Below, piece by piece: positions 5,611-19,381 of a stretch of DNA of 64,000 nt (positions are counted from its first letter, which is position 1; the number at the start of each line of letters is the position of its first letter). The notes beneath the pieces are model-generated. The model was not told the origin of the DNA, ran no database searches, and worked only from the letters and a program-made list of their open reading frames with translations. Source of the DNA: Thermoplasmata archaeon (GTDB taxonomy: Archaea; Thermoplasmatota; Thermoplasmata; RBG-16-68-12; JAGMCJ01); NCBI GenBank assembly GCA_023136265.1, contig JAGLRN010000002.1:667-64666 (forward strand). The letters run 5' to 3'. The translations under genes and the position numbers were made by a program.

Positions 5611-6813
5611 ATGGATGTCTCCGCCATAAGGAAGGATTTCCCGGTGCTCCAAGGTGACGATGCACCGATATTCTTCGATAGTGCTTGCACGACACTGAGG
5701 CCCGCTCAGGTCCTCGAGGCGATGAGCGACTACTACGAGAAATATCCATCCTGCGGCGGGAGAAGCATACACAAGTTCGGAACCCGCGTGACCCTAGAGG
5801 TCGACGAGGCCAGGAAGAGTATCCATCGCTTCCTCAACTCGGAGAGACGAGAGGAGATCATATTCGTGAAGAACACGACGGAGGCGGTCAACATGGTCGC
5901 CTCGTGCCTCGGCTTCGAGCGGGGCGATGTCGTGCTGACAACGGACAAGGAACACAACTCCAATCTCGTTCCCTGGCATGAGCTCTCGAGGAAGAAGGGC
6001 GTGACGTACAGTGTCGTGAGGTCCAACGAGGACAACACGTTCTCCATGGAGAACCTCAAGGAGATGATGTCCAAGAAGGTCAGGCTCGTCAGCATGGTTC
6101 ACACTTCCAATCTCGATGGCCACACCATTCCAGCGAAGGAGATCGCGGAGGTCGTTCACGACTACGGCGGGCTGTTCATGATGGACGGTGCGCAGAGCGC
6201 GCCTCACCTGCCGGTCGATGTCCAGGACCTGGATGTGGATTTCTTCGCGTGCTCCATACACAAGATGTGTGGTCCGAGCGGCATGGGTGTGTTCTACGGG
6301 AAGTACGACCTTCTCGAGGAGCTCGACACGTTCATCGTTGGCGGGGATACGGTCTCGGATTCGACGTACGAGGGGTGCGAGATCCTGAAACCGCCCCACA
6401 AGTTCGAGGGGGGGCTCCAGAACTTCAGCGGCATCATAGGAGCCGGCGCGGCGGTGGACTACCTCTCGAACATCGGCCTCGTGGAAATCGAGGAGCATTC
6501 ACGCGCGCTCAATAGAAGGGGCACGAAACTGCTGGAGAACGTCGCCGGTCTGGAGATCCTGGGGCCGGACGTGGAAAACCGCGGAGCGATCCTGCCCTTC
6601 AACATGGAAGGACTCGATCCCCACGACGTCGCCATGATACTGGACGAGGTGGCAAACATAATGATCAGGAGCGGGATGCATTGTGTGCACAGCTGGTTCA
6701 ACGCCCACGGTGTCAAAGGTTGCTCGAGGGCATCTTTCTACATCTACAACACCGAAGAAGAGGTCGACATCCTCGGCGAGCAGATCGCCAAGATATCAGA
6801 GCAGTTCTCCTAG
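5611..6813 (+). CDS. sufS: Cysteine desulfurase, SufS-like (class V PLP enzyme)
   Basis: FFDSACT, EHNSNLVPW, DGAQS.PH, SIHKMCGPSG, RSGMHC. Confidence 0.9.
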   Translation: MDVSAIRKDFPVLQGDDAPIFFDSACTTLRPAQVLEAMSDYYEKYPSCGGRSIHKFGTRVTLEVDEARKSIHRFLNSERREEIIFVKNTTEAVNMVASCLGFERGDVVLTTDKEHNSNLVPWHELSRKKGVTYSVVRSNEDNTFSMENLKEMMSKKVRLVSMVHTSNLDGHTIPAKEIAEVVHDYGGLFMMDGAQSAPHLPVDVQDLDVDFFACSIHKMCGPSGMGVFYGKYDLLEELDTFIVGGDTVSDSTYEGCEILKPPHKFEGGLQNFSGIIGAGAAVDYLSNIGLVEIEEHSRALNRRGTKLLENVAGLEILGPDVENRGAILPFNMEGLDPHDVAMILDEVANIMIRSGMHCVHSWFNAHGVKGCSRASFYIYNTEEEVDILGEQIAKISEQFS

Positions 6814-7047
6814 CCTCCTGATGTAGACGACTTTCTGGCGGGCGTCCTCGAGTTTAATCCTCTCAACCACGACATCGCTGTTCTTGAGCTTGGAGAGCGC
6901 AAAACGCAGCGTTCTCGGACCCAATCCAGTCTCTTTGCGAAGCTCCTTGTGACTCATTGGGCCATTGTACAACAAAACTCTATAGACTAGCTTGGCCGAG
7001 GGAGGCATTCCTTCGAGGGCAAAGACCCGCCCTGTCGTTCCGGACAA
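6796..7047 (-). CDS. Small archaeal winged-HTH transcriptional regulator
   Basis: PPSAKLVY.VL...GPM...EL...T.L..RT.R.AL..L; alternative start ATG 7008. Confidence 0.75.
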   Translation of the reverse strand: MSGTTGRVFALEGMPPSAKLVYRVLLYNGPMSHKELRKETGLGPRTLRFALSKLKNSDVVVERIKLEDARQKVVYIRRLGELL

Positions 7048-7113: not shown

Positions 7114-7533
7114 TCAGTCGATTGAGAGGAACAGATACGCGCCGGAACCGCCGCTTCTGACCTCTAAGTGGATATCCCACGTGCCGCTAGACACCCTGAG
7201 AGAGCCGTCGTTGGCGGTCATTCTCAGCCCGTAGTCCTCCAATGTGAGATATCGCGTGTCCTCACCGATGAACCTGAACCTTATCGAGGCGCACAGAGGA
7301 GAGTCCAGCGGTCCCCCGAACTCGACAAAGTCTATGTGACGCAACACGCCGTCACGAAGCCTGACGGTGATGTCCGCTCGACCGCCCCCCGCATCGAGAT
7401 ACAGAACAGAGATGTTCACGAACCTGGCTATCTCGTTGACCAGATCATCCTCGGTCCTCAAACGGTCATACGTCTCGAACGCGGAAAGAATCATGGGAAC
7501 AGATATGGCGACGACGACGGCGAACAGAAGCAT
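7114..7533 (-). CDS. Pilin-like secreted protein; frame extends upstream to ACG 7587
   Basis: Hydrophobic N-terminus; in-frame upstream codons read SRSANNGGG-SVGLSTN. Confidence 0.55.
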   Translation of the reverse strand: MLLFAVVVAISVPMILSAFETYDRLRTEDDLVNEIARFVNISVLYLDAGGGRADITVRLRDGVLRHIDFVEFGGPLDSPLCASIRFRFIGEDTRYLTLEDYGLRMTANDGSLRVSSGTWDIHLEVRSGGSGAYLFLSID

Positions 7534-7590: not shown

Positions 7591-8052
7591 TCACACCCTG
7601 ACCACGGGAAAGGTTCTTGTCAATTTGATGTAGCCAGATTTCTCCACAAGTATCTCCAGATGGCCTATGGGCGACCCGCCATTTGGAAGGAACGTATCCG
7701 AGACATCGATACGAGCCTCACCGTCCTCATTCGTGGTCTCGTATTCCGACACCCCACAGCCTTGGACGACGACGACCGCTCCCGCCAACGGGTTCAGGCC
7801 TTGGTCGAACACGATAACCGTTATCCTCCTGGGCGAGACTTCCCCTTCCTCCGGGTCATACTCCAATGTGTCGATCTGTTCGCCACCGTCGGTGATCTGA
7901 ACGGACCGAATCGATTTCGGAGGTTCCAAGGATGACATCCATCCAAGGACCATCGCAATCACTATTCCCGTGATGACCACCGCTATGAGCAACTGAAGTG
8001 GCAGACCCTCGACAGAGCCGCTAGAACCCATCCTGATGCCTTTCAACCTCAC
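7591..8052 (-). CDS. Pilin-like protein with class III-type signal peptide and Ig/carboxypeptidase-regulatory-like domain
   Basis: GGAGG SD then GTG 8052; MRLKGIRMGSSG-SVEGLPLQLLIAVVI; the longer track ORF overlaps the tRNA. Confidence 0.65.
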   Translation of the reverse strand: MRLKGIRMGSSGSVEGLPLQLLIAVVITGIVIAMVLGWMSSLEPPKSIRSVQITDGGEQIDTLEYDPEEGEVSPRRITVIVFDQGLNPLAGAVVVVQGCGVSEYETTNEDGEARIDVSDTFLPNGGSPIGHLEILVEKSGYIKLTRTFPVVRV

Positions 8053-8129
8053 TGCATCCCTCCGGATGTTGAAACGCCCTTCAGAGTATTCAAGCTTCGT
8101 TCGATTACAATTGTGATTGTGCTCGCAAA

Positions 8130-8202
8130 AGCCACCGGAGAGATTCGAACTCCCGACCTGCTGATTACAAGTCAGCCGCTCTTCCAACTAAGCTACGGTG
8201 GC
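8130..8202 (-). tRNA. tRNA-Thr(UGU)
   Basis: GCCACCG acceptor stem, GCTGA-CTTGTAA-TCAGC anticodon arm, GTTCGAAT T-loop. Confidence 0.97.
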
Positions 8203-8304
8203 GCAGTGTGTCTCAAGCCCAGGCGGCTAATAAAGATTATGGCCTATTGAAAATCACATCACAACAAATATATAAGCCCCCTATTATCGTCGAATCGTGA
8301 TATA

Positions 8305-9906
8305 ATGGTGGATTGCCCCAGGTGTGGTGCATCCTTGCCAGACGACGCAGAGAAATGCGCGATCTGTGGCGGGGATATGAAGGAGATACTCTGCCCTGAG
8401 TGTGAGAAGCCACTGTCATATTTGGCTGAGCATGAAAGGTACTACTGCTATGAGTGCGAGACCTACGCACCGAAGGGAATAGAGATACGCGACGAAGAGA
8501 GGAAGTGCCCGGAGTGCGAAAAATACCTGACGTATGTGTCCCAGTACGACAGATGGTACTGCTTCAACTGTCAGACCTACGCGCCCAAAGAGGAGGTGGA
8601 AGAGACGCCAGAGGAAGAAGAGCCGGAAGAGCCCGAGGAAGAGGAGAGACCAGAGCTGACGGAGGAAATCGTGAAGGCTTCGAAGCGCGACGATCTTGTA
8701 GTGCTCTGCAGGGCCTACGGGCTGAGGGTTGGCGGGAAAAAGAAGGCCCTCCAGGACAGACTCCTTGCCTACATGGAAGAGCAAGAAGAAATCCAGCCAC
8801 CTGAGGAGGAGGCTCCTCCGGAGGAAGCCGAGGAAGAGGTTCCTGAAGAGAGGGAACTACCTGAACCGCCCGAGGAAGAGCCGCCCGAAGCAGAGGAAGA
8901 GACCGAGGAGGCGCCCACCGAAGAGGCTCCTGAAGAGGAGGCCGTTCCAGAAGAGGCGGACGTCGAAAAGGAGATGGAAGAAGAGGGCGTGGAAGAGATT
9001 CCAGAGCCCCCTCCCGAAGAAGAAGAGCCGCCCGAGGTCCCGCCTGAGGAGAAACCTCCCGTTGAGAAGAAGGTCATGCCCGCGGTGGTGAAGGCTCCGC
9101 CAAAGAAGGAGCCCCCAGAGATCGAGAAGCCGAAGGTCAAGAGATGTTCCACGTGCGGGGAACCTCTAACGTATGTCGCCAAGTACGAGAGGTGGTTCTG
9201 CTCGACGTGCAAGAAGTATGCGCCTGAAGCCAAGAAGGCGGAAGTCAGGGTCAAGAAGTGCCCCACATGCGGGGAGGCTCTAACATACTACTCGCAATAC
9301 GACAGATGGTACTGCCACACGTGTAAGGAGTATGCGCCGAAAGAGGCCAAGAAGCCCGAGGTGGCGGTCGCGGAGGGGGTATGCCCGAGGTGCCATGGCA
9401 AGGCCAGTTACATGAAGAAGTATGACAGATGGTACTGCCACACATGCAGGTCCTACCTGCCCGCCAAGAAGCCAACGGTGGTCGTGAAGAAGAAAGCGGC
9501 AAAGAAGTGCCCGACTTGTGGGGAGGACCTCACGTACGTCGAGAAGCACAATCGGTACTACTGCTACGTCTGTGCGAAGTACGCTCCAAGTGAGGCCCCG
9601 GCCAGGGCGGCTCGTCCAGCCGCAGTCGCAGTACCAGTGGGGAGATCTGGAAGCGCGAAGGCCGGGATTGCCATGATAGGGACGGGAGCCGCGTTCTTCC
9701 TGGTTTCCGGACTCCTGACACTGTTCATCGCCATGGGAATGATCTCTGAGTTCTCCTTCTATGAGAGCTCCGGTCGGATAATCACGCTGTACGGCATGTC
9801 TCTTACTACGGGTTTGTTCGACCTGTTCCTGTTCCTTGGCATCGTCTTCGTTCTGTTCGGTGTCGTCGCGGGTCTTGTCGCTACAACGAGCCCCAAGAGG
9901 AGATAG
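8305..9906 (+). CDS. Membrane-anchored protein with 7 zinc ribbons, SAP-like motif and Glu/Pro-rich linker
   Basis: Six C-x2-C-x4-(T/S)Y-x5-(W/Y)(Y/F)C-x2-C repeats, an N-terminal ribbon, KRDDLVVLCRAYGLRVGGKKKALQDRL, two C-terminal TMs. Confidence 0.8.
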   Translation: MVDCPRCGASLPDDAEKCAICGGDMKEILCPECEKPLSYLAEHERYYCYECETYAPKGIEIRDEERKCPECEKYLTYVSQYDRWYCFNCQTYAPKEEVEETPEEEEPEEPEEEERPELTEEIVKASKRDDLVVLCRAYGLRVGGKKKALQDRLLAYMEEQEEIQPPEEEAPPEEAEEEVPEERELPEPPEEEPPEAEEETEEAPTEEAPEEEAVPEEADVEKEMEEEGVEEIPEPPPEEEEPPEVPPEEKPPVEKKVMPAVVKAPPKKEPPEIEKPKVKRCSTCGEPLTYVAKYERWFCSTCKKYAPEAKKAEVRVKKCPTCGEALTYYSQYDRWYCHTCKEYAPKEAKKPEVAVAEGVCPRCHGKASYMKKYDRWYCHTCRSYLPAKKPTVVVKKKAAKKCPTCGEDLTYVEKHNRYYCYVCAKYAPSEAPARAARPAAVAVPVGRSGSAKAGIAMIGTGAAFFLVSGLLTLFIAMGMISEFSFYESSGRIITLYGMSLTTGLFDLFLFLGIVFVLFGVVAGLVATTSPKRR

Positions 9907-9946: not shown

Positions 9947-10960
9947 ATGACCTTTGAGGATGTCATCAAGCGGCTCAGGAAGCCAGGCAAAAGGAGTCCC
10001 GAGAGGTTCATATCGACCTGGACAGAGCAGGAGGTCTTGGACGGCGAGGCAACGGAGTGCTACGTCGTCGTTCTTCGGACAAAGGGCTGCTATTGGTCCA
10101 GGACGAGCGGGTGTTCCATGTGCGGATACATCAACGACTGCGCAGAGGAAGCCCCTTCAGAGAACATACTCGCACAGTTCGAGGAAGCCATGAAAGGCCA
10201 TGCCGGACAGAGGTACGTGAAAATCTACACGTCGGGGAGCTTCCTGGACGGTGACGAGATCGGGGTCGATGCGGCTCAGAGGATGCTGACCGCTGCGCTC
10301 GCCAGGGCCGATAGGGTGCTCATCGAGAGCAGGCCGGAATTCGTCTCCAGGAAGCGCCTCGAGAGTCTGCCCGAGCCGAACAGAATCGAGATAGCCATGG
10401 GCCTCGAGTCGGCGAGCGATGTGGTTCTCCGGAACTCGATCAACAAGAAGATGGACTTCGAGGACTTCAGGAAAGCGTGCGAGCTCTGCCAGGAGTTGGG
10501 GATGGGGACCCGGGCATACGTCCTGGTCAAACCCCCGTTCCTGACGGAGAAAGAGGCTTTGATGGACTCTGTGGCGACGGCGCGGTCGGCGTCCAATCTC
10601 ACCAATACCATCTCCCTCAACCCTGTCAATGTTCAAAGGAACACGCTCGTGGAGTTCCTCTGGAAGAGGGGCGAGTATCGACCTCCTTGGCTGTGGACCG
10701 TCCTGGAAGTCATCGAACGGAGCAAGGACATGGACTCGCGCATCGTCGTTTCAACTGTGGGAGCCGGCAGCAGGAGAGGTGCCCACAACTGCGGCGGGTG
10801 TGATTCGGCGATCATCGATTTCCTCCGCGAGTTCTCGTTGGACGGCTCGACGAGCCCGCCAGACACTGGGTGCGATTGTCGGGAGCAGTGGCTCGACCTC
10901 CTAGACATACAGGGACCCATGCAGTGCTCGGCCGACCCACACTCCTTCTTCGACAGATAG
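9947..10960 (+). CDS. Archaeosine biosynthesis radical SAM protein RaSEA
   Basis: LRTKGC.W....GCSMCGY, KIYTSGSFLD, ESRPEF, YRPPWLWT, RGAHNC. Confidence 0.88.
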   Translation: MTFEDVIKRLRKPGKRSPERFISTWTEQEVLDGEATECYVVVLRTKGCYWSRTSGCSMCGYINDCAEEAPSENILAQFEEAMKGHAGQRYVKIYTSGSFLDGDEIGVDAAQRMLTAALARADRVLIESRPEFVSRKRLESLPEPNRIEIAMGLESASDVVLRNSINKKMDFEDFRKACELCQELGMGTRAYVLVKPPFLTEKEALMDSVATARSASNLTNTISLNPVNVQRNTLVEFLWKRGEYRPPWLWTVLEVIERSKDMDSRIVVSTVGAGSRRGAHNCGGCDSAIIDFLREFSLDGSTSPPDTGCDCREQWLDLLDIQGPMQCSADPHSFFDR

Positions 10961-10992
10961 CTTTTTTTGGCGGGATTCCCCTTACTCCCCTC

Positions 10993-11304
10993 ATGCGCCA
11001 CTATCCTGTCAAGAGGGGAAACAAAGAGAACTTGCAGCCGGACAACCTTCGCGGCCTTGTGGCGGAGAGCTTCGGCGACTGCTCGGAGGAGGAGGGCAGA
11101 TTCACCGCGTCCTTCGGTGCCCTGAAGCAGATCTCCGCCTGGACCGATGGAAAAGACCTGATAGTCGACACGGAAATGGATGCGTCCGTTCCGGATGACG
11201 TTGCGATGGAGACCATAAGAAGATTCAACGACTTCCTTCTCAGGACGACCGGCTACAGGAGCAAGGAAAGAAAGAAGAGGGCGGAGAAAGAGCACAAGAA
11301 GTAG
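10993..11304 (+). CDS. DUF5611-like archaeal protein
   Basis: MRHYPVKRG start, ASFGALK, FNDFL...TGY.SKER. Confidence 0.7.
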   Translation: MRHYPVKRGNKENLQPDNLRGLVAESFGDCSEEEGRFTASFGALKQISAWTDGKDLIVDTEMDASVPDDVAMETIRRFNDFLLRTTGYRSKERKKRAEKEHKK

Positions 11305-15154: not shown

Positions 15155-16264
15155 CTACTTGATTAAGTCAATACCGCCTACTTCAGCTTTTCGGACCTCT
15201 TCTCGGCCCAGAATCTGTCTGGACTTCACGCCCGTCAGAATCACCATGACCCGCATGAGGTGCTCCAGGGACGGTTCCACCGCGGCTCCCCAGATGATCC
15301 GCGCGTTCCGGCTGATTCTGCTCTGAACTATCTCGGCGACCTTTTCCGCTTCGCTGACAGTCATGCTATTACCGCCGGTGACGTTGACCAGCGCGCCTGA
15401 GGCCTCGGTTATGTCGACATCGATCAGAGGAGAGTTTATTGCCTCCTCGACAGCTTCCTCGGCCCGGTTATCGGAGTCGCCCTCACCGAGGCCTATCATC
15501 GCCACGCCGCCGCCCTTCATTATCGTCCTTATGTCGTTGAAGTCGAGATTGACCAGGCCGGGTTTCGTGATGACCTCAGTGATTCCCTTGATCGAACGCA
15601 TCAGAACCTCGTCGGCCACCTTGAAGGCAGCGTTGAGCGCCAGTCTCGGGACCAGCTCGATAAGCTTGTCGTTCGGGATCACTATCACCGTGTCAGCGTG
15701 GTTCCTCAGCTTCTCGAGCCCATACTCCGCGTTCTCCATTCTGATCGTGCCTTCTGCCCTGAACGGAAGAGTGCATATCGCGATCGTGAGCGCCCCGACC
15801 TCCTTGGCCAGGCTCGCAATGTAGGGTGTTGCGCCCGTGCCCGTGCCGCCTCCGAGACCGCACGTGACGAAGACCATGTCCGACCCTTGGAGCATGGCTC
15901 GCAGCTCCTCCTCACTCTCCCGGGCGGCTTCCTCGCCTATCTGCGGCAGGGCTCCGGCCCCCAGACCTCTCGTGGACCTCTTGCCCAGAAGCAACTTGTG
16001 GGGCGACCGGATGGTCAGCAGGTGCTGCGCATCGGTGTTCGCCGCGTACAGTTCCGCGCCCAGAACACCGGCACCCACGAGCCTGTCTATCGTGTTGGAC
16101 CCTCCACCGCCCACACCTATGATCCTGATGTTCGTTTTCAGTCCCGCTAGAATCCTCTCGAGCTCTTCATCATCGGCACTGAACCCGCCGAGTTCAGTGG
16201 GCGCTTCCCGAGCAACAGTATCTTCACCCGCTCGAGATAGAACTTCTTCTACTACAGATTTCAT
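15155..16264 (-). CDS. ftsZ: Cell division protein FtsZ (copy A)
   Basis: [24 protein letters not shown]. Confidence 0.98.
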
Positions 16265-16408: not shown

Positions 16409-17515
16409 CTATCTTACGACGTCCACGCCCATCTTCTTGCCGACGGGTGAGCTGGTCTTCCCGAGTATCTGCTTGGACCTCACTCCGGTGACGATGAGCA
16501 TCACTTTCAACGTGTGCTCGAGTGTTGGATCGACGCTGGCGCCCCATATGATGCGCGCATTGGGGCTGACCCTGTCCTGTATCTCCTCGACCACCTTCTC
16601 GGCCTCGGACACTGTCATGTCGTTCCCTCCCGTGACGTTGACGAGAACGCCTCTCGCATCGCTCACGTCCACATCGAGCAGCGGAGACTCGATCGCTTCG
16701 GTGAGGGCTTCGACGGCCCGGTCCTCGCCGACCGCATCGGACTCACCGAGCCCGATCATCGCAACTCCCGCGCCCTGCATTATCGTTCTGATGTCGTTGA
16801 AGTCGAGGTTCACGAGACCCGGCTTGGTGATGACCTCCGCAAGGCCCTTTATCGCCCGCACAAGCACCTCGTCGGCGAATCGGAACGCAGCGTTGAGAGA
16901 GAGCCGTGGAACAAGGTCCAGGAGCCTGTCGTTAGGTATCGATACGACTGTATCGGCACTCTGCCTGAGCTTCTCGAGGCCCCACTCGGCGTTCTCCATC
17001 CTCAGCAGTCCCTCGCCCTTGAAGGGAAGCGTAACGAATGCAACGGTCAGAGCTCCCGCGTCCTTGGCGAGCTTCGAGATCACATGGCTTCCGCCGGTAC
17101 CTGTTCCGCCGCCCAGACCGCAGGTCACGAAGACCATGTCGGAACCGTGCAGGAACTTCCTGATGTCCTCCTCGTTCTCGCGCGCCGCTTCCTCTCCGAT
17201 CTGTGGTAGGGCACCCGCTCCCAGACCCTTGGTCACCCTTCTTCCGAGGAGTATCTTCTTCGGTGCAGGCGTCGCCAGGAGGTGCTGAGCATCGGTGTTC
17301 GCCGCGAAGAGCTCTGCCCCGGTTATGCCTTCCTCCATCATCCGAGCGATGGTGTTGCAGCCGCTGCCCCCGCATCCGAATATCCTCACCTTGGTCTTCA
17401 TCTCGGCGAGAAGCGATTCGAGTTCCGTGTCGGCTCTCATATCCTCATTAACCGCTGGCGCGGTGCTCACAGGCTTGTCGTCTCTTGAAAGTGCATCCTC
17501 TAATAGGGTCTTCAT
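16409..17515 (-). CDS. ftsZ: Cell division protein FtsZ (copy B)
   Basis: [24 protein letters not shown]; ATG 17515 after GGAGG. Confidence 0.97.
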   Translation of the reverse strand: MKTLLEDALSRDDKPVSTAPAVNEDMRADTELESLLAEMKTKVRIFGCGGSGCNTIARMMEEGITGAELFAANTDAQHLLATPAPKKILLGRRVTKGLGAGALPQIGEEAARENEEDIRKFLHGSDMVFVTCGLGGGTGTGGSHVISKLAKDAGALTVAFVTLPFKGEGLLRMENAEWGLEKLRQSADTVVSIPNDRLLDLVPRLSLNAAFRFADEVLVRAIKGLAEVITKPGLVNLDFNDIRTIMQGAGVAMIGLGESDAVGEDRAVEALTEAIESPLLDVDVSDARGVLVNVTGGNDMTVSEAEKVVEEIQDRVSPNARIIWGASVDPTLEHTLKVMLIVTGVRSKQILGKTSSPVGKKMGVDVVR

Positions 17516-17629
17516 TCTCAGACCTCCAGTATTTGTGAGGAATCCCATCCCACAAATCGGACGTTAATGCTGCTACGGATATTTAGAGATATTGGGTTGT
17601 ATCGGACGGTGCTTCTAGCGGTTTCTGGA

Positions 17630-19031: not shown

Positions 19032-19381
19032 ACGGAGGTGAAACGGAGTGGGTACGGAGGAGTTACGGAGGAGAAACGGAGGATCTCTAGTGGGACATAG
19101 GAGAACCATAGAAGGAGCATAGGAGGCAAAGGTTTATGAGGGGTAACAGGCGGGCTCGGAGCTCATTCTATCACGGAGACACAGCGAATAGCAAGGATCC
19201 TGCAAGGAATAGCAAGGGAGGAGCAAGGATTCGGCAAGGAACCTGCAAGCGACCTGCAAGGATCTAGCAAGGATTCGGCAAGGATGTCTATGGTAAGTGT
19301 ATGGTAGGTCCCTAGGATGTCACAGGAAACCTTAGCGGGACTTTAGGGAAACCTCAGGAGGAGCCTAGGATTTGCCTATGA
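19032..19381 (+). repeat. About 11-bp-phased short-motif array I
   Basis: ACGGAG at 19032/43/54/65/76; CATAG at 19096/107/118; GCAAG x9 from 19191 to 19278; CCTAGGA-like units to 19375. Confidence 0.9.

What the first reader, a model, noticed from the sequence alone, without database searches (positions are those of the whole stretch)
8305..9906. Membrane-tethered SAP-like plus zinc-ribbon repeat protein
Seen: an N-terminal ribbon and two repeats, then a SAP/HEH-like motif (about 8680-8775), a roughly 130-aa Glu/Pro disordered spacer, four more repeats with basic linkers, and two C-terminal TMs. Established: SAP/HEH/LEM folds bind DNA or chromatin, and in eukaryotes LEM/HEH proteins tether chromatin to the inner nuclear membrane. 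Inference: a candidate archaeal chromosome-to-membrane tether. It would also be a speculative candidate reader of the phased arrays.
Basis: partly seen in the sequence, partly recalled or inferred. Interest (0 to 1): 0.62.

Follow-up and report, generated by a model that had tools for sequence, protein, structure and literature searches.

The report
Membrane-anchored SAP and zinc-ribbon protein
This is a real, conserved but unstudied protein of one order of uncultured Thermoplasmata archaea: a two-helix membrane anchor holds a SAP domain (a DNA/RNA-binding type) and six to seven small zinc-binding modules in the cytoplasm on a long floppy acidic linker, so it most likely ties the chromosome or another large partner to the membrane.

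Summary
ORF 8305-9906(+) encodes 533 aa, in this order:
- one short C4 ribbon
- two 28-aa ribbons
- a SAP domain that passes Pfam's own threshold
- a 115-aa Glu/Pro linker (net charge about -40)
- four more ribbons with Lys-rich spacers
- a C-terminal two-helix membrane hairpin

The gene is under purifying selection. It is present in 60 of 61 genomes of the window's GTDB order. The full architecture was not found in other orders of the class.

The SAP call holds by sequence profile and by predicted fold; LEM/HeH membership does not. The repeat is a C4 ribbon closest to ribosomal eS31/S27a. It is a mobile terminal module in about 2,500 protein clusters, joined to PRC barrels, membrane proteins, kinases, DnaA-like ATPases and IleRS.

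Throughout the order the gene sits directly upstream of RaSEA and DUF5611, with one in-frame fusion to RaSEA. It also lies 5-12 kb from a tandem ftsZ pair.

Best reading (about 0.4): a nucleoid-to-membrane tether. Rivals are a CdpC-like FtsZ anchor and an RNA- or RaSEA-linked scaffold. A role as dedicated reader of the 11-bp arrays is not supported, because those arrays are genus-limited. Nothing here shows binding.

The parts
8266..8277 (+). A/T-rich TATA-like box (AAATATATAAGC) about 28-39 nt upstream of the ATG. It implies a very short or absent leader.
   Evidence: Sequence read directly.
8305..9906 (+). Coding sequence of the 533-aa membrane-anchored SAP and zinc-ribbon protein (P0001).
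   Evidence: Orthologues in 60 of 61 genomes of the order. dN/dS 0.07-0.22.
8314..8367 (+). Short N-terminal C4 ribbon (aa 4-21, CxxC-x10-CxxC), seen only in close relatives.
   Evidence: Pfam DZR, Zn_ribbon_3 and Zn_Ribbon_1 hits at aa 1-25 and 4-51.
8392..8475 (+). Ribbon repeat 1 (aa 30-57).
8506..8589 (+). Ribbon repeat 2 (aa 68-95).
8593..8658 (+). Poly-acidic tract (aa 97-118, 64% Glu).
8659..8784 (+). SAP domain (aa 119-160): three helices, with the motif L..L....YGL...G.K..L..RLL.
   Evidence: Pfam PF02037 above cut-off. PDB profile hits to SAP domains. AF2 model with pLDDT 83.8. Foldseek top hits are all SAP domains.
8785..9129 (+). Glu/Pro-rich disordered linker (aa 161-275, net charge about -40).
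   Evidence: Acidic and Pro-rich in every family member, length 59-232 aa. It is among the fastest-changing segments, together with the membrane hairpin.
9145..9228 (+). Ribbon repeat 3 (aa 281-308).
9259..9342 (+). Ribbon repeat 4 (aa 319-346). It was the first sequence of the modelled alignment.
   Evidence: AF2 model with pLDDT 82.
9382..9465 (+). Ribbon repeat 5 (aa 360-387). Its Cys and Tyr positions are invariant across the family alignment.
9508..9591 (+). Ribbon repeat 6 (aa 402-429), invariant across the family alignment.
9661..9753 (+). Transmembrane helix 1 (aa about 453-483), preceded by an Arg/Lys-rich stretch.
   Evidence: Hydropathy scan. Conserved position in all relatives.
9793..9891 (+). 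Transmembrane helix 2 (aa about 497-529), followed by the tail SPKRR.
   Evidence: The C-terminus is fused to RaSEA in P0008.
9947..10960 (+). Downstream operon partner: the archaeosine radical-SAM enzyme RaSEA. Its ATG lies 40 nt after the stop codon.
   Evidence: TIGR01210, 327.8 bits against a cut-off of 212. Junction sequence. Same order and strand in about 25 loci.
10990..11304 (+). Third gene of the co-directional unit: a DUF5611 protein.
   Evidence: PF18446, 97 bits. Adjacent to RaSEA also in another family of the class that lacks the ribbon gene.

Best explanation
The protein is a membrane tether.

Shown:
- A C-terminal hairpin of two hydrophobic helices.
- Everything else is one long N-terminal chain: four eS31-like C4 zinc ribbons near the membrane, then a 115-aa strongly acidic Pro-rich linker, then a SAP domain and two to three further ribbons at the far end.
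- This layout is conserved across one whole order of Thermoplasmata and is under purifying selection.

Inferred:
- Both ends of the hairpin face the cytoplasm, so the whole chain is cytoplasmic.
- The SAP domain binds double-stranded nucleic acid, most likely chromosomal DNA. This would hold parts of the nucleoid against the inner face of the membrane.
- The acidic linker works as a long, self-repelling spacer that lets the SAP end reach tens of nanometres into the cell.
- The ribbons either add weak extra contacts (avidity) or dock a second partner.
- The operon position next to housekeeping genes suggests constitutive expression.
For: Anchor and topology:
- Domain anatomy.
- The flanks of the hairpin are positively charged and the loop is not.
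- The loop is only a few residues long in most relatives, so there is no outside domain.
- P0008 continues in frame from the second helix into the cytoplasmic enzyme RaSEA.

SAP:
- Passes Pfam's cut-off, in 19 of 21 family members.
- Profile hits to the Ku70, DEK, Hcc-1 and ERI1 SAP domains.
- The predicted fold superposes (TM 0.65-0.76, rmsd about 1 A) on SAP domains solved on nucleosomes (DEK, Ku70), on flap DNA (FAN1) and on an RNA stem-loop (ERI1).
- SAP is the slowest-changing part at longer distances (dN 0.07 against 0.28 for the linker).

Other support:
- SAP plus this ribbon recur together in a second architecture, coiled coil-DZR-SAP-ribbon, in L059 and L061.
- The ribbon replaces the DNA-binding domain IV in DnaA-like ATPases of some bacteria.
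- Conservation: 60 of 61 genomes of the order.

Established knowledge: SAP domains bind DNA or structured RNA. Membrane-DNA tethers exist in eukaryotes (LEM/HeH proteins) and in bacteria (Noc).
Against: - No binding data of any kind.
- SAP domains also bind RNA (ERI1) and proteins (PIAS1 binds p53), both among the structural matches.
- The ribbon cores are not consistently basic (net +1.0 +/- 2.3).
- The ribbon's other fusion partners (kinases, TPR, PRC barrels, multi-pass membrane proteins, IleRS) look more like a protein-docking or localisation module than a DNA binder.
- The tight, order-wide operon with RaSEA and the neighbouring ftsZ pair point to other partners.
- Relatives in other orders are soluble multi-ribbon proteins without SAP or anchor. 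The ribbon array therefore has a function of its own that does not need DNA tethering.
Confidence: 0.4

Rival explanations
1. Divisome anchor. The protein would be a working counterpart of Haloferax CdpC, which joins a membrane-binding end to an FtsZ1-binding C4 zinc ribbon through a long disordered linker. Here the hairpin is the anchor, one or more ribbons bind FtsZ (or another cytoskeletal protein), and SAP might couple the ring to the chromosome.
For: - CdpC has zinc ribbons at both ends of a 243-aa disordered linker and anchors FtsZ1. Its authors report remote multi-ribbon homologues in all classes of Thermoplasmatota (bioRxiv 10.64898/2026.07.16.738847).
- The window's gene has the same logic.
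- A tandem ftsZ pair lies 5.3 kb away (window 15155-16264 and 16409-17548, minus strand). The same contig proximity (5-12 kb) holds in at least 17 genomes of the order.
- The ribbon is fused to PRC barrels, a cell-division domain, in Thermoproteota.
Against: - CdpC belongs to DUF7093. No such Pfam hit appears for this protein even at E up to 10.
- I could not obtain the CdpC sequence for a direct comparison.
- The ribbon is common in Desulfurococcales and Pyrodictiaceae. By established knowledge these lack FtsZ, and the CdpC authors found almost no homologues in Thermoproteota.
- SepF, the known FtsZ anchor, is present in 30 of 31 genomes of the order.
- The ftsZ genes are on the convergent strand, inside the well-known ftsZ-secE-spt5-L11-L1-L10-L12 block. 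The proximity may be mere block conservation.
Confidence: 0.2
2. RNA or translation-linked scaffold. The SAP domain and the eS31-like ribbons would bind structured RNA (tRNA or rRNA). Alternatively the protein docks RaSEA (with DUF5611) at the membrane, so that archaeosine formation or ribosomes are held there.
For: - In about 25 loci at 26-85% identity the gene ends within about -15 to +50 nt of the RaSEA start on the same strand, followed by DUF5611.
- One contig carries an in-frame fusion to RaSEA.
- The ribbon's closest sequence relatives are ribosomal eS31/S27a ribbons. Pfam PF01599 scores 39.2 bits against a cut-off of 22.3 over six stretches, and eS31 chains are the best full-length PDB matches.
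- A SAP domain binds an RNA stem-loop in ERI1, which is among the best structural matches.
- The ribbon also occurs at the C-terminus of an IleRS.
- The genome has the archaeosine transglycosylase genes.
Against: - RaSEA is in 111 of 121 genomes of the phylum. In 70 sampled loci outside the order, no ribbon or SAP gene precedes it.
- RaSEA-DUF5611 is an older pair that exists without this gene. RaSEA therefore does not need it.
- The fusion is seen on a single metagenome contig. The closest complete genome (L015) has separate genes.
- No known reason to put a tRNA-modification enzyme at the membrane.
Confidence: 0.15
3. General docking hub, or another function not listed here. The ribbons would be protein-protein or self-association modules, the protein would gather several ribbon-recognising partners at the membrane, and SAP would play a minor or protein-binding role. 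A membrane-held transcription regulator released by cleavage is another such possibility.
For: - The ribbon is a promiscuous terminal module in 2,566 protein clusters.
- It is joined through flexible linkers to kinases, TPR repeats, PRC barrels, multi-pass membrane proteins, AAA+ ATPases and coiled coils.
- The number of ribbons varies from 1 to 7 within the family.
Against: - In the window's own genome the ribbon occurs essentially only in this protein. The one other weak match has stop codons in it. There is thus no set of ribbon-bearing partners to gather.
- SAP is among the most conserved parts.
Confidence: 0.2
4. Dedicated reader of the 11-bp phased repeat arrays of this window (19032-19381 and 51501-51836).
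For: Only the coincidence of a multi-module putative DNA binder and multi-site arrays in one genome. Earlier notes confirm the arrays are real.
Against: - Array II-like DNA is found in the window's genome and in 5 of 7 genomes of the same genus, and in 0 of 13 genomes of the other families of the order.
- The protein is in 60 of 61 genomes of the order.
- SAP domains are not known as sequence-specific readers.
Confidence: 0.03

Closest known systems
Eukaryotic LEM/HeH inner-nuclear-membrane proteins (Heh1/Lem2, Heh2/Man1, Src1)
   Same: A small helix-extension-helix motif of the SAP/LEM/HeH class sits at the far end of a long disordered linker, followed by two membrane helices. The DNA-facing part lies on the same side as both termini. 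The presumed job is holding chromatin or DNA at a membrane.
   Different: - The motif matches SAP, not the LEM or HeH profiles or structures.
- There is no winged-helix (MSC) domain after the second helix.
- Six to seven zinc ribbons are added.
- The family is confined to one archaeal order, so the likeness is convergent and not ancestral.
Haloferax volcanii CdpC (HVO_0399, DUF7093), membrane anchor of FtsZ1
   Same: An archaeal protein with zinc ribbons on both sides of a very long disordered linker and a membrane-binding end. Its authors report remote multi-ribbon relatives in Thermoplasmatota.
   Different: - CdpC uses an amphipathic helix, not a two-helix hairpin.
- CdpC has no SAP domain and only two ribbons.
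- No DUF7093 match here.
- Sequence homology of the ribbons could not be tested.
Ribosomal protein eS31 / S27ae zinc ribbon (Pfam PF01599)
   Same: Closest sequence relative of the repeat: CPxCG-x8-[YH]-D-R-x-Y-C-x-x-C, a C4 ribbon of the same length. The predicted fold is a plain zinc ribbon.
   Different: Here the ribbon is repeated six times in a 533-aa membrane protein. It carries extra conserved aromatic residues and a YAP tail. It is a mobile module fused to many unrelated proteins.
Bacterial nucleoid-membrane tethers (Noc of Bacillus subtilis)
   Same: Working analogy only: a DNA-binding domain joined to a membrane-binding element, bringing the chromosome to the membrane.
   Different: There are no shared domains. 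Noc is ParB-like with an amphipathic helix and binds specific sites.
Cren7-like zinc ribbons fused to CdvA-like coiled coils or FtsZ (Kaur et al. 2018, PMC5906684)
   Same: Archaeal zinc ribbons predicted to anchor DNA during division. Ribbon fusions to division-type domains exist in both cases.
   Different: A profile-to-sequence comparison of this ribbon with Cren7 finds no relation.

Membership tests
SAP domain (Pfam PF02037) | Sequence profile match above the curated cut-off. | tested here: met
   27.5 bits in the whole protein and 32.9 bits for the excised segment, against a cut-off of 23.9. 19 of 21 family members match, best E 1.6e-10.
SAP domain (Pfam PF02037) | Helix-extended loop-helix fold with conserved Leu, Gly-x-Lys/Arg and Arg-Leu positions. 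| tested here: met
   Invariant L, G, L and R columns. AF2 model with pLDDT 83.8 and helices at 9-14, 17-26 and 35-49. Foldseek top hits are SAP domains of DEK, ERI1, Hcc-1, Ku70, PIAS1, FAN1 and Tho1, with TM 0.65-0.76.
SAP domain (Pfam PF02037) | Binds DNA or structured RNA. | not testable with these tools
   Needs gel-shift or anisotropy assays with purified protein.
LEM/HeH inner-nuclear-membrane proteins | LEM or HeH profile or structure match for the N-terminal motif. | tested here: not met
   No LEM or HeH family among the Pfam hits at E up to 10. No LEM/HeH entry among the 50 Foldseek matches.
LEM/HeH inner-nuclear-membrane proteins | Motif - long disordered linker - two membrane helices. 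| tested here: met
LEM/HeH inner-nuclear-membrane proteins | C-terminal MSC winged-helix domain after the second helix. | tested here: not met
   The protein ends 4-7 residues after the second helix.
eS31/S27a-type zinc ribbon (Pfam PF01599) | Profile match above cut-off and C4 ligand spacing. | tested here: met
   39.2 bits against a cut-off of 22.3, six stretches. CxxC-x14-CxxC six times. eS31 chains are the best full-length PDB sequence matches, at marginal E values of 0.007-0.07.
eS31/S27a-type zinc ribbon (Pfam PF01599) | Is the small ribosomal protein itself. | tested here: not met
   It is a 533-aa membrane protein with six copies. The resemblance is at the level of the module only.
CdpC (DUF7093) FtsZ1 anchor | Match to the DUF7093 family. 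| tested here: not met
   CdpC is assigned to DUF7093. DUF7093 is not among the Pfam hits of this protein at E up to 10. HMMER's filters may hide very weak matches. A direct comparison with HVO_0399 was not possible.
CdpC (DUF7093) FtsZ1 anchor | Zinc ribbons flanking a long disordered linker, plus a membrane-binding element. | tested here: met
   The anchor is a C-terminal hairpin, not an N-terminal amphipathic helix.
CdpC (DUF7093) FtsZ1 anchor | Direct binding of FtsZ1 by a ribbon. | not testable with these tools
   No complex prediction or assay is available here.
Cren7 / Cren7-like zinc ribbons | Detectable sequence-profile relation to Cren7. | tested here: not met
   hhalign of the 113-unit ribbon profile against Cren7 gives probability 0.15%. 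The Cren7 sequence was verified against PDB 2jtm.
Partner of RaSEA (archaeosine synthesis) | Conserved gene adjacency with RaSEA wherever RaSEA occurs. | tested here: not met
   Adjacent in the order. Absent upstream of RaSEA in 70 loci from the rest of the phylum.

The most novel reading that the evidence does not exclude
One order of Thermoplasmata has independently built a counterpart of the eukaryotic LEM/HeH inner-nuclear-membrane tethers. A SAP domain on a long acidic spacer, held by a two-helix hairpin, pins the nucleoid to the cell membrane. The aromatic 'YxRWYC' zinc ribbon it carries would be an unnamed, widespread targeting module of archaea and some bacteria that brings very different proteins (PRC-barrel division proteins, kinases, DnaA-like ATPases, membrane proteins) to one common cellular structure, such as the nucleoid or the division site.
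Probability: 0.3. Interest if true: 0.75.

Novelty: new variant of a known kind. Interest (0 to 1): 0.55.

Why it matters
How archaea without a nucleus position and segregate their chromosome relative to the membrane is largely unknown. No archaeal chromosome-to-membrane tether has been described.

A conserved protein that joins a SAP domain to a membrane anchor is a concrete, testable candidate. SAP was found in none of 14 control genomes of model organisms, which include four archaea.

It also shows that the 'DNA-binding motif - long disordered linker - two membrane helices' design of the nuclear-envelope tethers can arise outside eukaryotes.

Separately, the ribbon repeat defines a sizeable module family without a name: 2,566 clusters, none with a specific Pfam model. 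Its partner, once found, could explain the localisation of many archaeal proteins, including PRC-barrel proteins linked to cell division.

If instead the ribbons bind FtsZ, the protein would be the Thermoplasmata counterpart of the newly described CdpC anchor.

Tried and rejected
- Cren7 origin of the ribbon: hhalign found no relation.
- LEM/HeH membership: no profile or structural match.
- Fold search with the ribbon model: only generic zinc ribbons (RPA, Rpb9/TFIIS, TFIIB, S27a, HVO_2753), all at E of 0.28 or more. It says nothing about function.
- RaSEA as obligatory partner: rejected as a general rule, because RaSEA elsewhere in the phylum has other upstream genes and pairs with DUF5611 without this gene.
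- Long 'open frames' in front of RaSEA in some genomes looked like further fusions. None of them carries a ribbon, SAP motif or membrane helix. I read them as stop-poor spurious frames, which is an inference.
- Missing FtsZ anchor: SepF is present in the order, so the protein is not needed to fill that gap.
- Reader of the phased arrays: the distributions do not match.
- Electrostatics of the ribbon cores: near neutral on average, so neither for nor against nucleic-acid binding.
- Direct comparison with Haloferax CdpC: its sequence could not be reached with the tools. Only its Pfam family name could be used.
- Literature: no paper in the held library describes this family or SAP domains in Thermoplasmata.
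Full report
**Observation**

The ORF at 8305-9906(+) is open and encodes 533 residues. A direct scan gives this anatomy:
- A short C4 ribbon at aa 4-21.
- Six copies of a longer ribbon, CxxC-x14-CxxC followed by YAP, starting at aa 30, 68, 281, 319, 360 and 402.
- A poly-Glu tract at aa 97-118.
- A helical segment at aa 119-160.
- A 115-aa linker that is 43% Glu and 24% Pro, net charge -41.
- A basic ribbon block at aa 276-428, net +19.
- Two hydrophobic helices at about aa 453-483 and 497-529.
- A KRR tail.

The gene is real.
- Relatives only 26-39% identical keep the same order of parts.
- dN/dS against four orthologues is 0.07-0.22.
- At the longer distances SAP and the ribbons change most slowly. 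The linker and the membrane helices change fastest.

**The SAP domain**

- Pfam SAP (PF02037) is matched above its curated cut-off: 27.5 bits in the whole protein and 32.9 bits for the excised segment, against 23.9. It is matched in 19 of 21 family members.
- A profile of the family's SAP segments (alignment A3) finds the solved SAP domains of Ku70, DEK, Hcc-1/SARNP and ERI1.
- An AlphaFold2 model of the segment has pLDDT 83.8 and three helices.
- Its 50 Foldseek matches are dominated by SAP domains. Several of these were solved on nucleosomes (DEK, Ku70), on flap DNA (FAN1) or on an RNA stem-loop (ERI1), with TM-scores of 0.65-0.76 and rmsd near 1 A. E-values are weak, as expected for 50 residues.
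- No LEM or HeH entry appears, and no LEM/HeH Pfam family was hit.

So the segment is a SAP domain. It is 'LEM-like' only in the loose sense of the shared helix-extension-helix class.

SAP is unusual here. The Pfam model hits none of 14 control genomes of model organisms, which include four archaea. It hits 38 of 121 genomes of this class.

**The ribbon repeat**

- An alignment of 113 non-redundant units from the window and related loci (A2) gives the consensus CPxCGxxLxYIxQYxRWYCYxCxxYAP.
- Its nearest sequence relatives are ribosomal eS31/S27a ribbons ([22 protein letters not shown]). Pfam PF01599 scores 39.2 bits over six stretches. eS31 chains are the best full-length PDB matches, at marginal E values of 0.007-0.07.
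- The AlphaFold2 model (pLDDT 82) is a plain zinc ribbon, and fold search returns only generic ribbons.
- A proposed link to Cren7-type ribbons (PMC5906684) was tested and not found.

A search of 1.84 billion cluster representatives finds 2,566 proteins with the ribbon at E of 0.001 or less, and 348 at 1e-10 or less. Some carry up to about nine copies.

Among the best 145 proteins, a motif-and-hydropathy screen sorts them as follows:
- About 30 have the SAP plus C-terminal anchor layout.
- About 18 have the anchor without a recognisable SAP.
- The rest are soluble multi-ribbon proteins or carry other domains.

Other fusion partners seen:
- PRC barrels, in Desulfurococcales, Pyrodictiaceae, Nitrososphaeria and Bathyarchaeia.
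- Ser/Thr kinases and TPR repeats.
- Cytoplasmic tails of multi-pass membrane proteins.
- DnaA-like AAA+ ATPases in which the ribbon stands where domain IV should be, in Clostridia and Elusimicrobia MAGs.
- An IleRS-ribbon-DUF835 protein.
- A coiled-coil-DZR-SAP-ribbon protein.

The ribbon is therefore a mobile terminal module, usually on flexible linkers. That is the typical behaviour of a docking or localisation domain. Its core is near neutral (+1.0 +/- 2.3).

**Anchor and topology**

- Arg/Lys residues flank the hairpin on both sides, and the loop is short or acidic. By the positive-inside rule both ends face the cytoplasm.
- In P0008 the reading frame runs from the second helix straight into RaSEA, a cytoplasmic radical-SAM enzyme. 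That requires a cytoplasmic C-terminus, and with two helices a cytoplasmic N-terminus.
- The fusion is on one contig only, so it is supporting evidence and not decisive.
- No extracellular domain exists, so the hairpin is simply an anchor.

**Distribution**

- The family profile finds the protein in 60 of 61 genomes of the window's GTDB order: 7 families, 10 genera.
- In other orders of the class, only ribbon-only proteins or short ribbon-plus-hairpin proteins are found.
- Soluble seven-ribbon proteins occupy the same upstream neighbourhood (SufS, pilin-like gene) in two MAGs labelled Thermoplasmata, L016 and L045.
- I infer that SAP and the anchor are additions made in this order to an older multi-ribbon protein.

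**Genomic context**

The gene starts 103 nt from a divergent tRNA-Thr and has a TATA-like box about 30 nt upstream.

It is followed after 40 nt by RaSEA (TIGR01210, 327.8 bits) and then by a DUF5611 gene.
- This trio is kept, with junctions of about -15 to +50 nt, in about 25 loci.
- RaSEA is almost universal in the phylum (111 of 121 genomes), but in 70 loci outside the order nothing ribbon- or SAP-like precedes it.
- RaSEA-DUF5611 is adjacent without this gene in another family of the class.
- The link to RaSEA is thus an order-specific operon arrangement, not a general partnership.

Convergent with the trio lies the classical block L12-L10-L1-L11-Spt5-(small ORF, no Pfam match; SecE by position only)-FtsZ-FtsZ. 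The tandem ftsZ pair is on the same contig, 5-12 kb from the gene, in at least 17 genomes of the order. SepF is present in 30 of 31 genomes.

**Reading**

What is shown is a membrane-anchored chain carrying one nucleic-acid-type domain and several docking-type ribbons on a long acidic spacer. That is the anatomy of a tether; the cytoplasmic orientation is inferred from the topology evidence above.

- Most economical partner for SAP: DNA, which gives a nucleoid-to-membrane tether. My confidence is about 0.4.
- Main rival: the recent description of Haloferax CdpC. That protein has a zinc ribbon, a 243-aa disordered linker and a second zinc ribbon, and anchors FtsZ1.
  - For it: the similar design, the ftsZ neighbourhood and the PRC-barrel fusions.
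  - Against it: the lack of a DUF7093 match, the abundance of this ribbon in lineages that by established knowledge lack FtsZ, and the presence of SepF.
  - I put it at about 0.2.
- RNA- or RaSEA-linked role: about 0.15.
- General docking hub or something else: about 0.2.
- Dedicated reader of the 11-bp arrays: about 0.03. Array II-like DNA is limited to the genus, while the protein is order-wide.

**Standing**

- No paper in the held library describes the family.
- Earlier AI notes from this scan describe the same family in other genomes and reach similar readings. They are not independent evidence.
  - the order-wide census;
  - the negative result for the rest of the phylum;
  - the ftsZ block;
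  - the CdpC comparison;
  - the eS31 likeness and the Cren7 negative;
  - the census of ribbon fusions.
- The protein uses known domains in a new architecture. I file it as a new variant of a known kind (membrane tethers built on SAP/HeH-type motifs), of moderate interest until binding is tested.

Noticed in passing
window 8130-8202 (-): tRNA-Thr (anticodon TGT) lies just upstream, divergent from the gene. The listed ORF 7591-8187(-) runs over it, so the first residues of that ORF are spurious. The real pilin-like gene probably starts further in, near MGSSGSVEGLPLQLL.
   Followed up: partly
window 7114-7533 (-) and 7591 to about 8030 (-): Two small proteins with N-terminal hydrophobic segments that look like archaeal pilins (class III signal peptides). 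No Pfam or NCBIfam family matches. Together with SufS (5611-6813) and a small winged-helix protein (6796-7047, -), they are conserved upstream of the ribbon gene in close relatives (L004, L005, L010). Homologues of the winged-helix and pilin-like genes also lie upstream in the more distant locus L025.
   Followed up: partly
window 15155-16264 (-) and 16409-17548 (-): Tandem FtsZ paralogues at the head of the block ftsZ-ftsZ-(SecE-like)-spt5-L11-L1-L10-L12. Genomes of the order carry 3-8 (mostly 4-7) FtsZ/tubulin-family matches each.
   Followed up: partly
L052, L054, L065 (Clostridia and Elusimicrobia MAGs); proteins P0020-P0028: DnaA-like AAA+ proteins (617-676 aa) lack the usual DNA-binding domain IV. 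In its place they carry one or two copies of the same ribbon on Pro/Glu/Lys-rich linkers, followed by an unmatched C-terminal domain of about 130 aa.
   Followed up: partly
L062:3084-7067 and L063:4839-8795 (Thermoplasmata MAGs): An isoleucyl-tRNA synthetase is extended at its C-terminus by the ribbon, a second short zinc ribbon and a DUF835 domain. The total is about 1,320 aa.
   Followed up: partly
L033-L044, L053, L066, L074, L076, L082, L083 (Thermoproteota): Small PRC-barrel proteins end in one or two copies of the ribbon. The PRC barrel was confirmed by Pfam for L033. A preprint on PRC proteins mentions PRC plus zinc-ribbon fusions only in passing.
   Followed up: partly
family alignment A1, just before the first membrane helix (window protein aa about 440-450): Most family members carry an H-x-H motif (HRH, HTH, HAH or HSH) followed by G-x-P-x-x-G-I at the membrane interface. 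The window's own genus has lost it (GRSGSAKAGIAM). This could be a metal or lipid contact.
   Followed up: no
L025, L048, P0011, P0013, P0007 (family members): Several ribbon units have lost the last cysteine of the second knuckle (YCYAEGKYAPK, YCYKEKKYA) but keep the aromatic residues. Zinc binding may be dispensable in some copies.
   Followed up: no
G000:C2:12795-12890 (same genome, outside the window): A second SAP-domain hit (29.3 bits) lies in an open frame of about 486 aa. It is conserved in congeners. SAP domains occur in 38 of 121 genomes of the class but in none of 14 control genomes.
   Followed up: no
G000:C76:1819-2126 and G000:C9:180-420 (same genome): Further copies of array II-like repeat DNA exist elsewhere in the window's genome and in 5 of 7 genomes of the genus, so the array family is multi-copy.
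   Followed up: partly
window 9947-11304 (+) and loci L108, L110, L114, L117-L123: RaSEA and a DUF5611 protein are adjacent both in this order and in another family of the class. This suggests that DUF5611 is the real conserved partner of RaSEA.
   Followed up: partly
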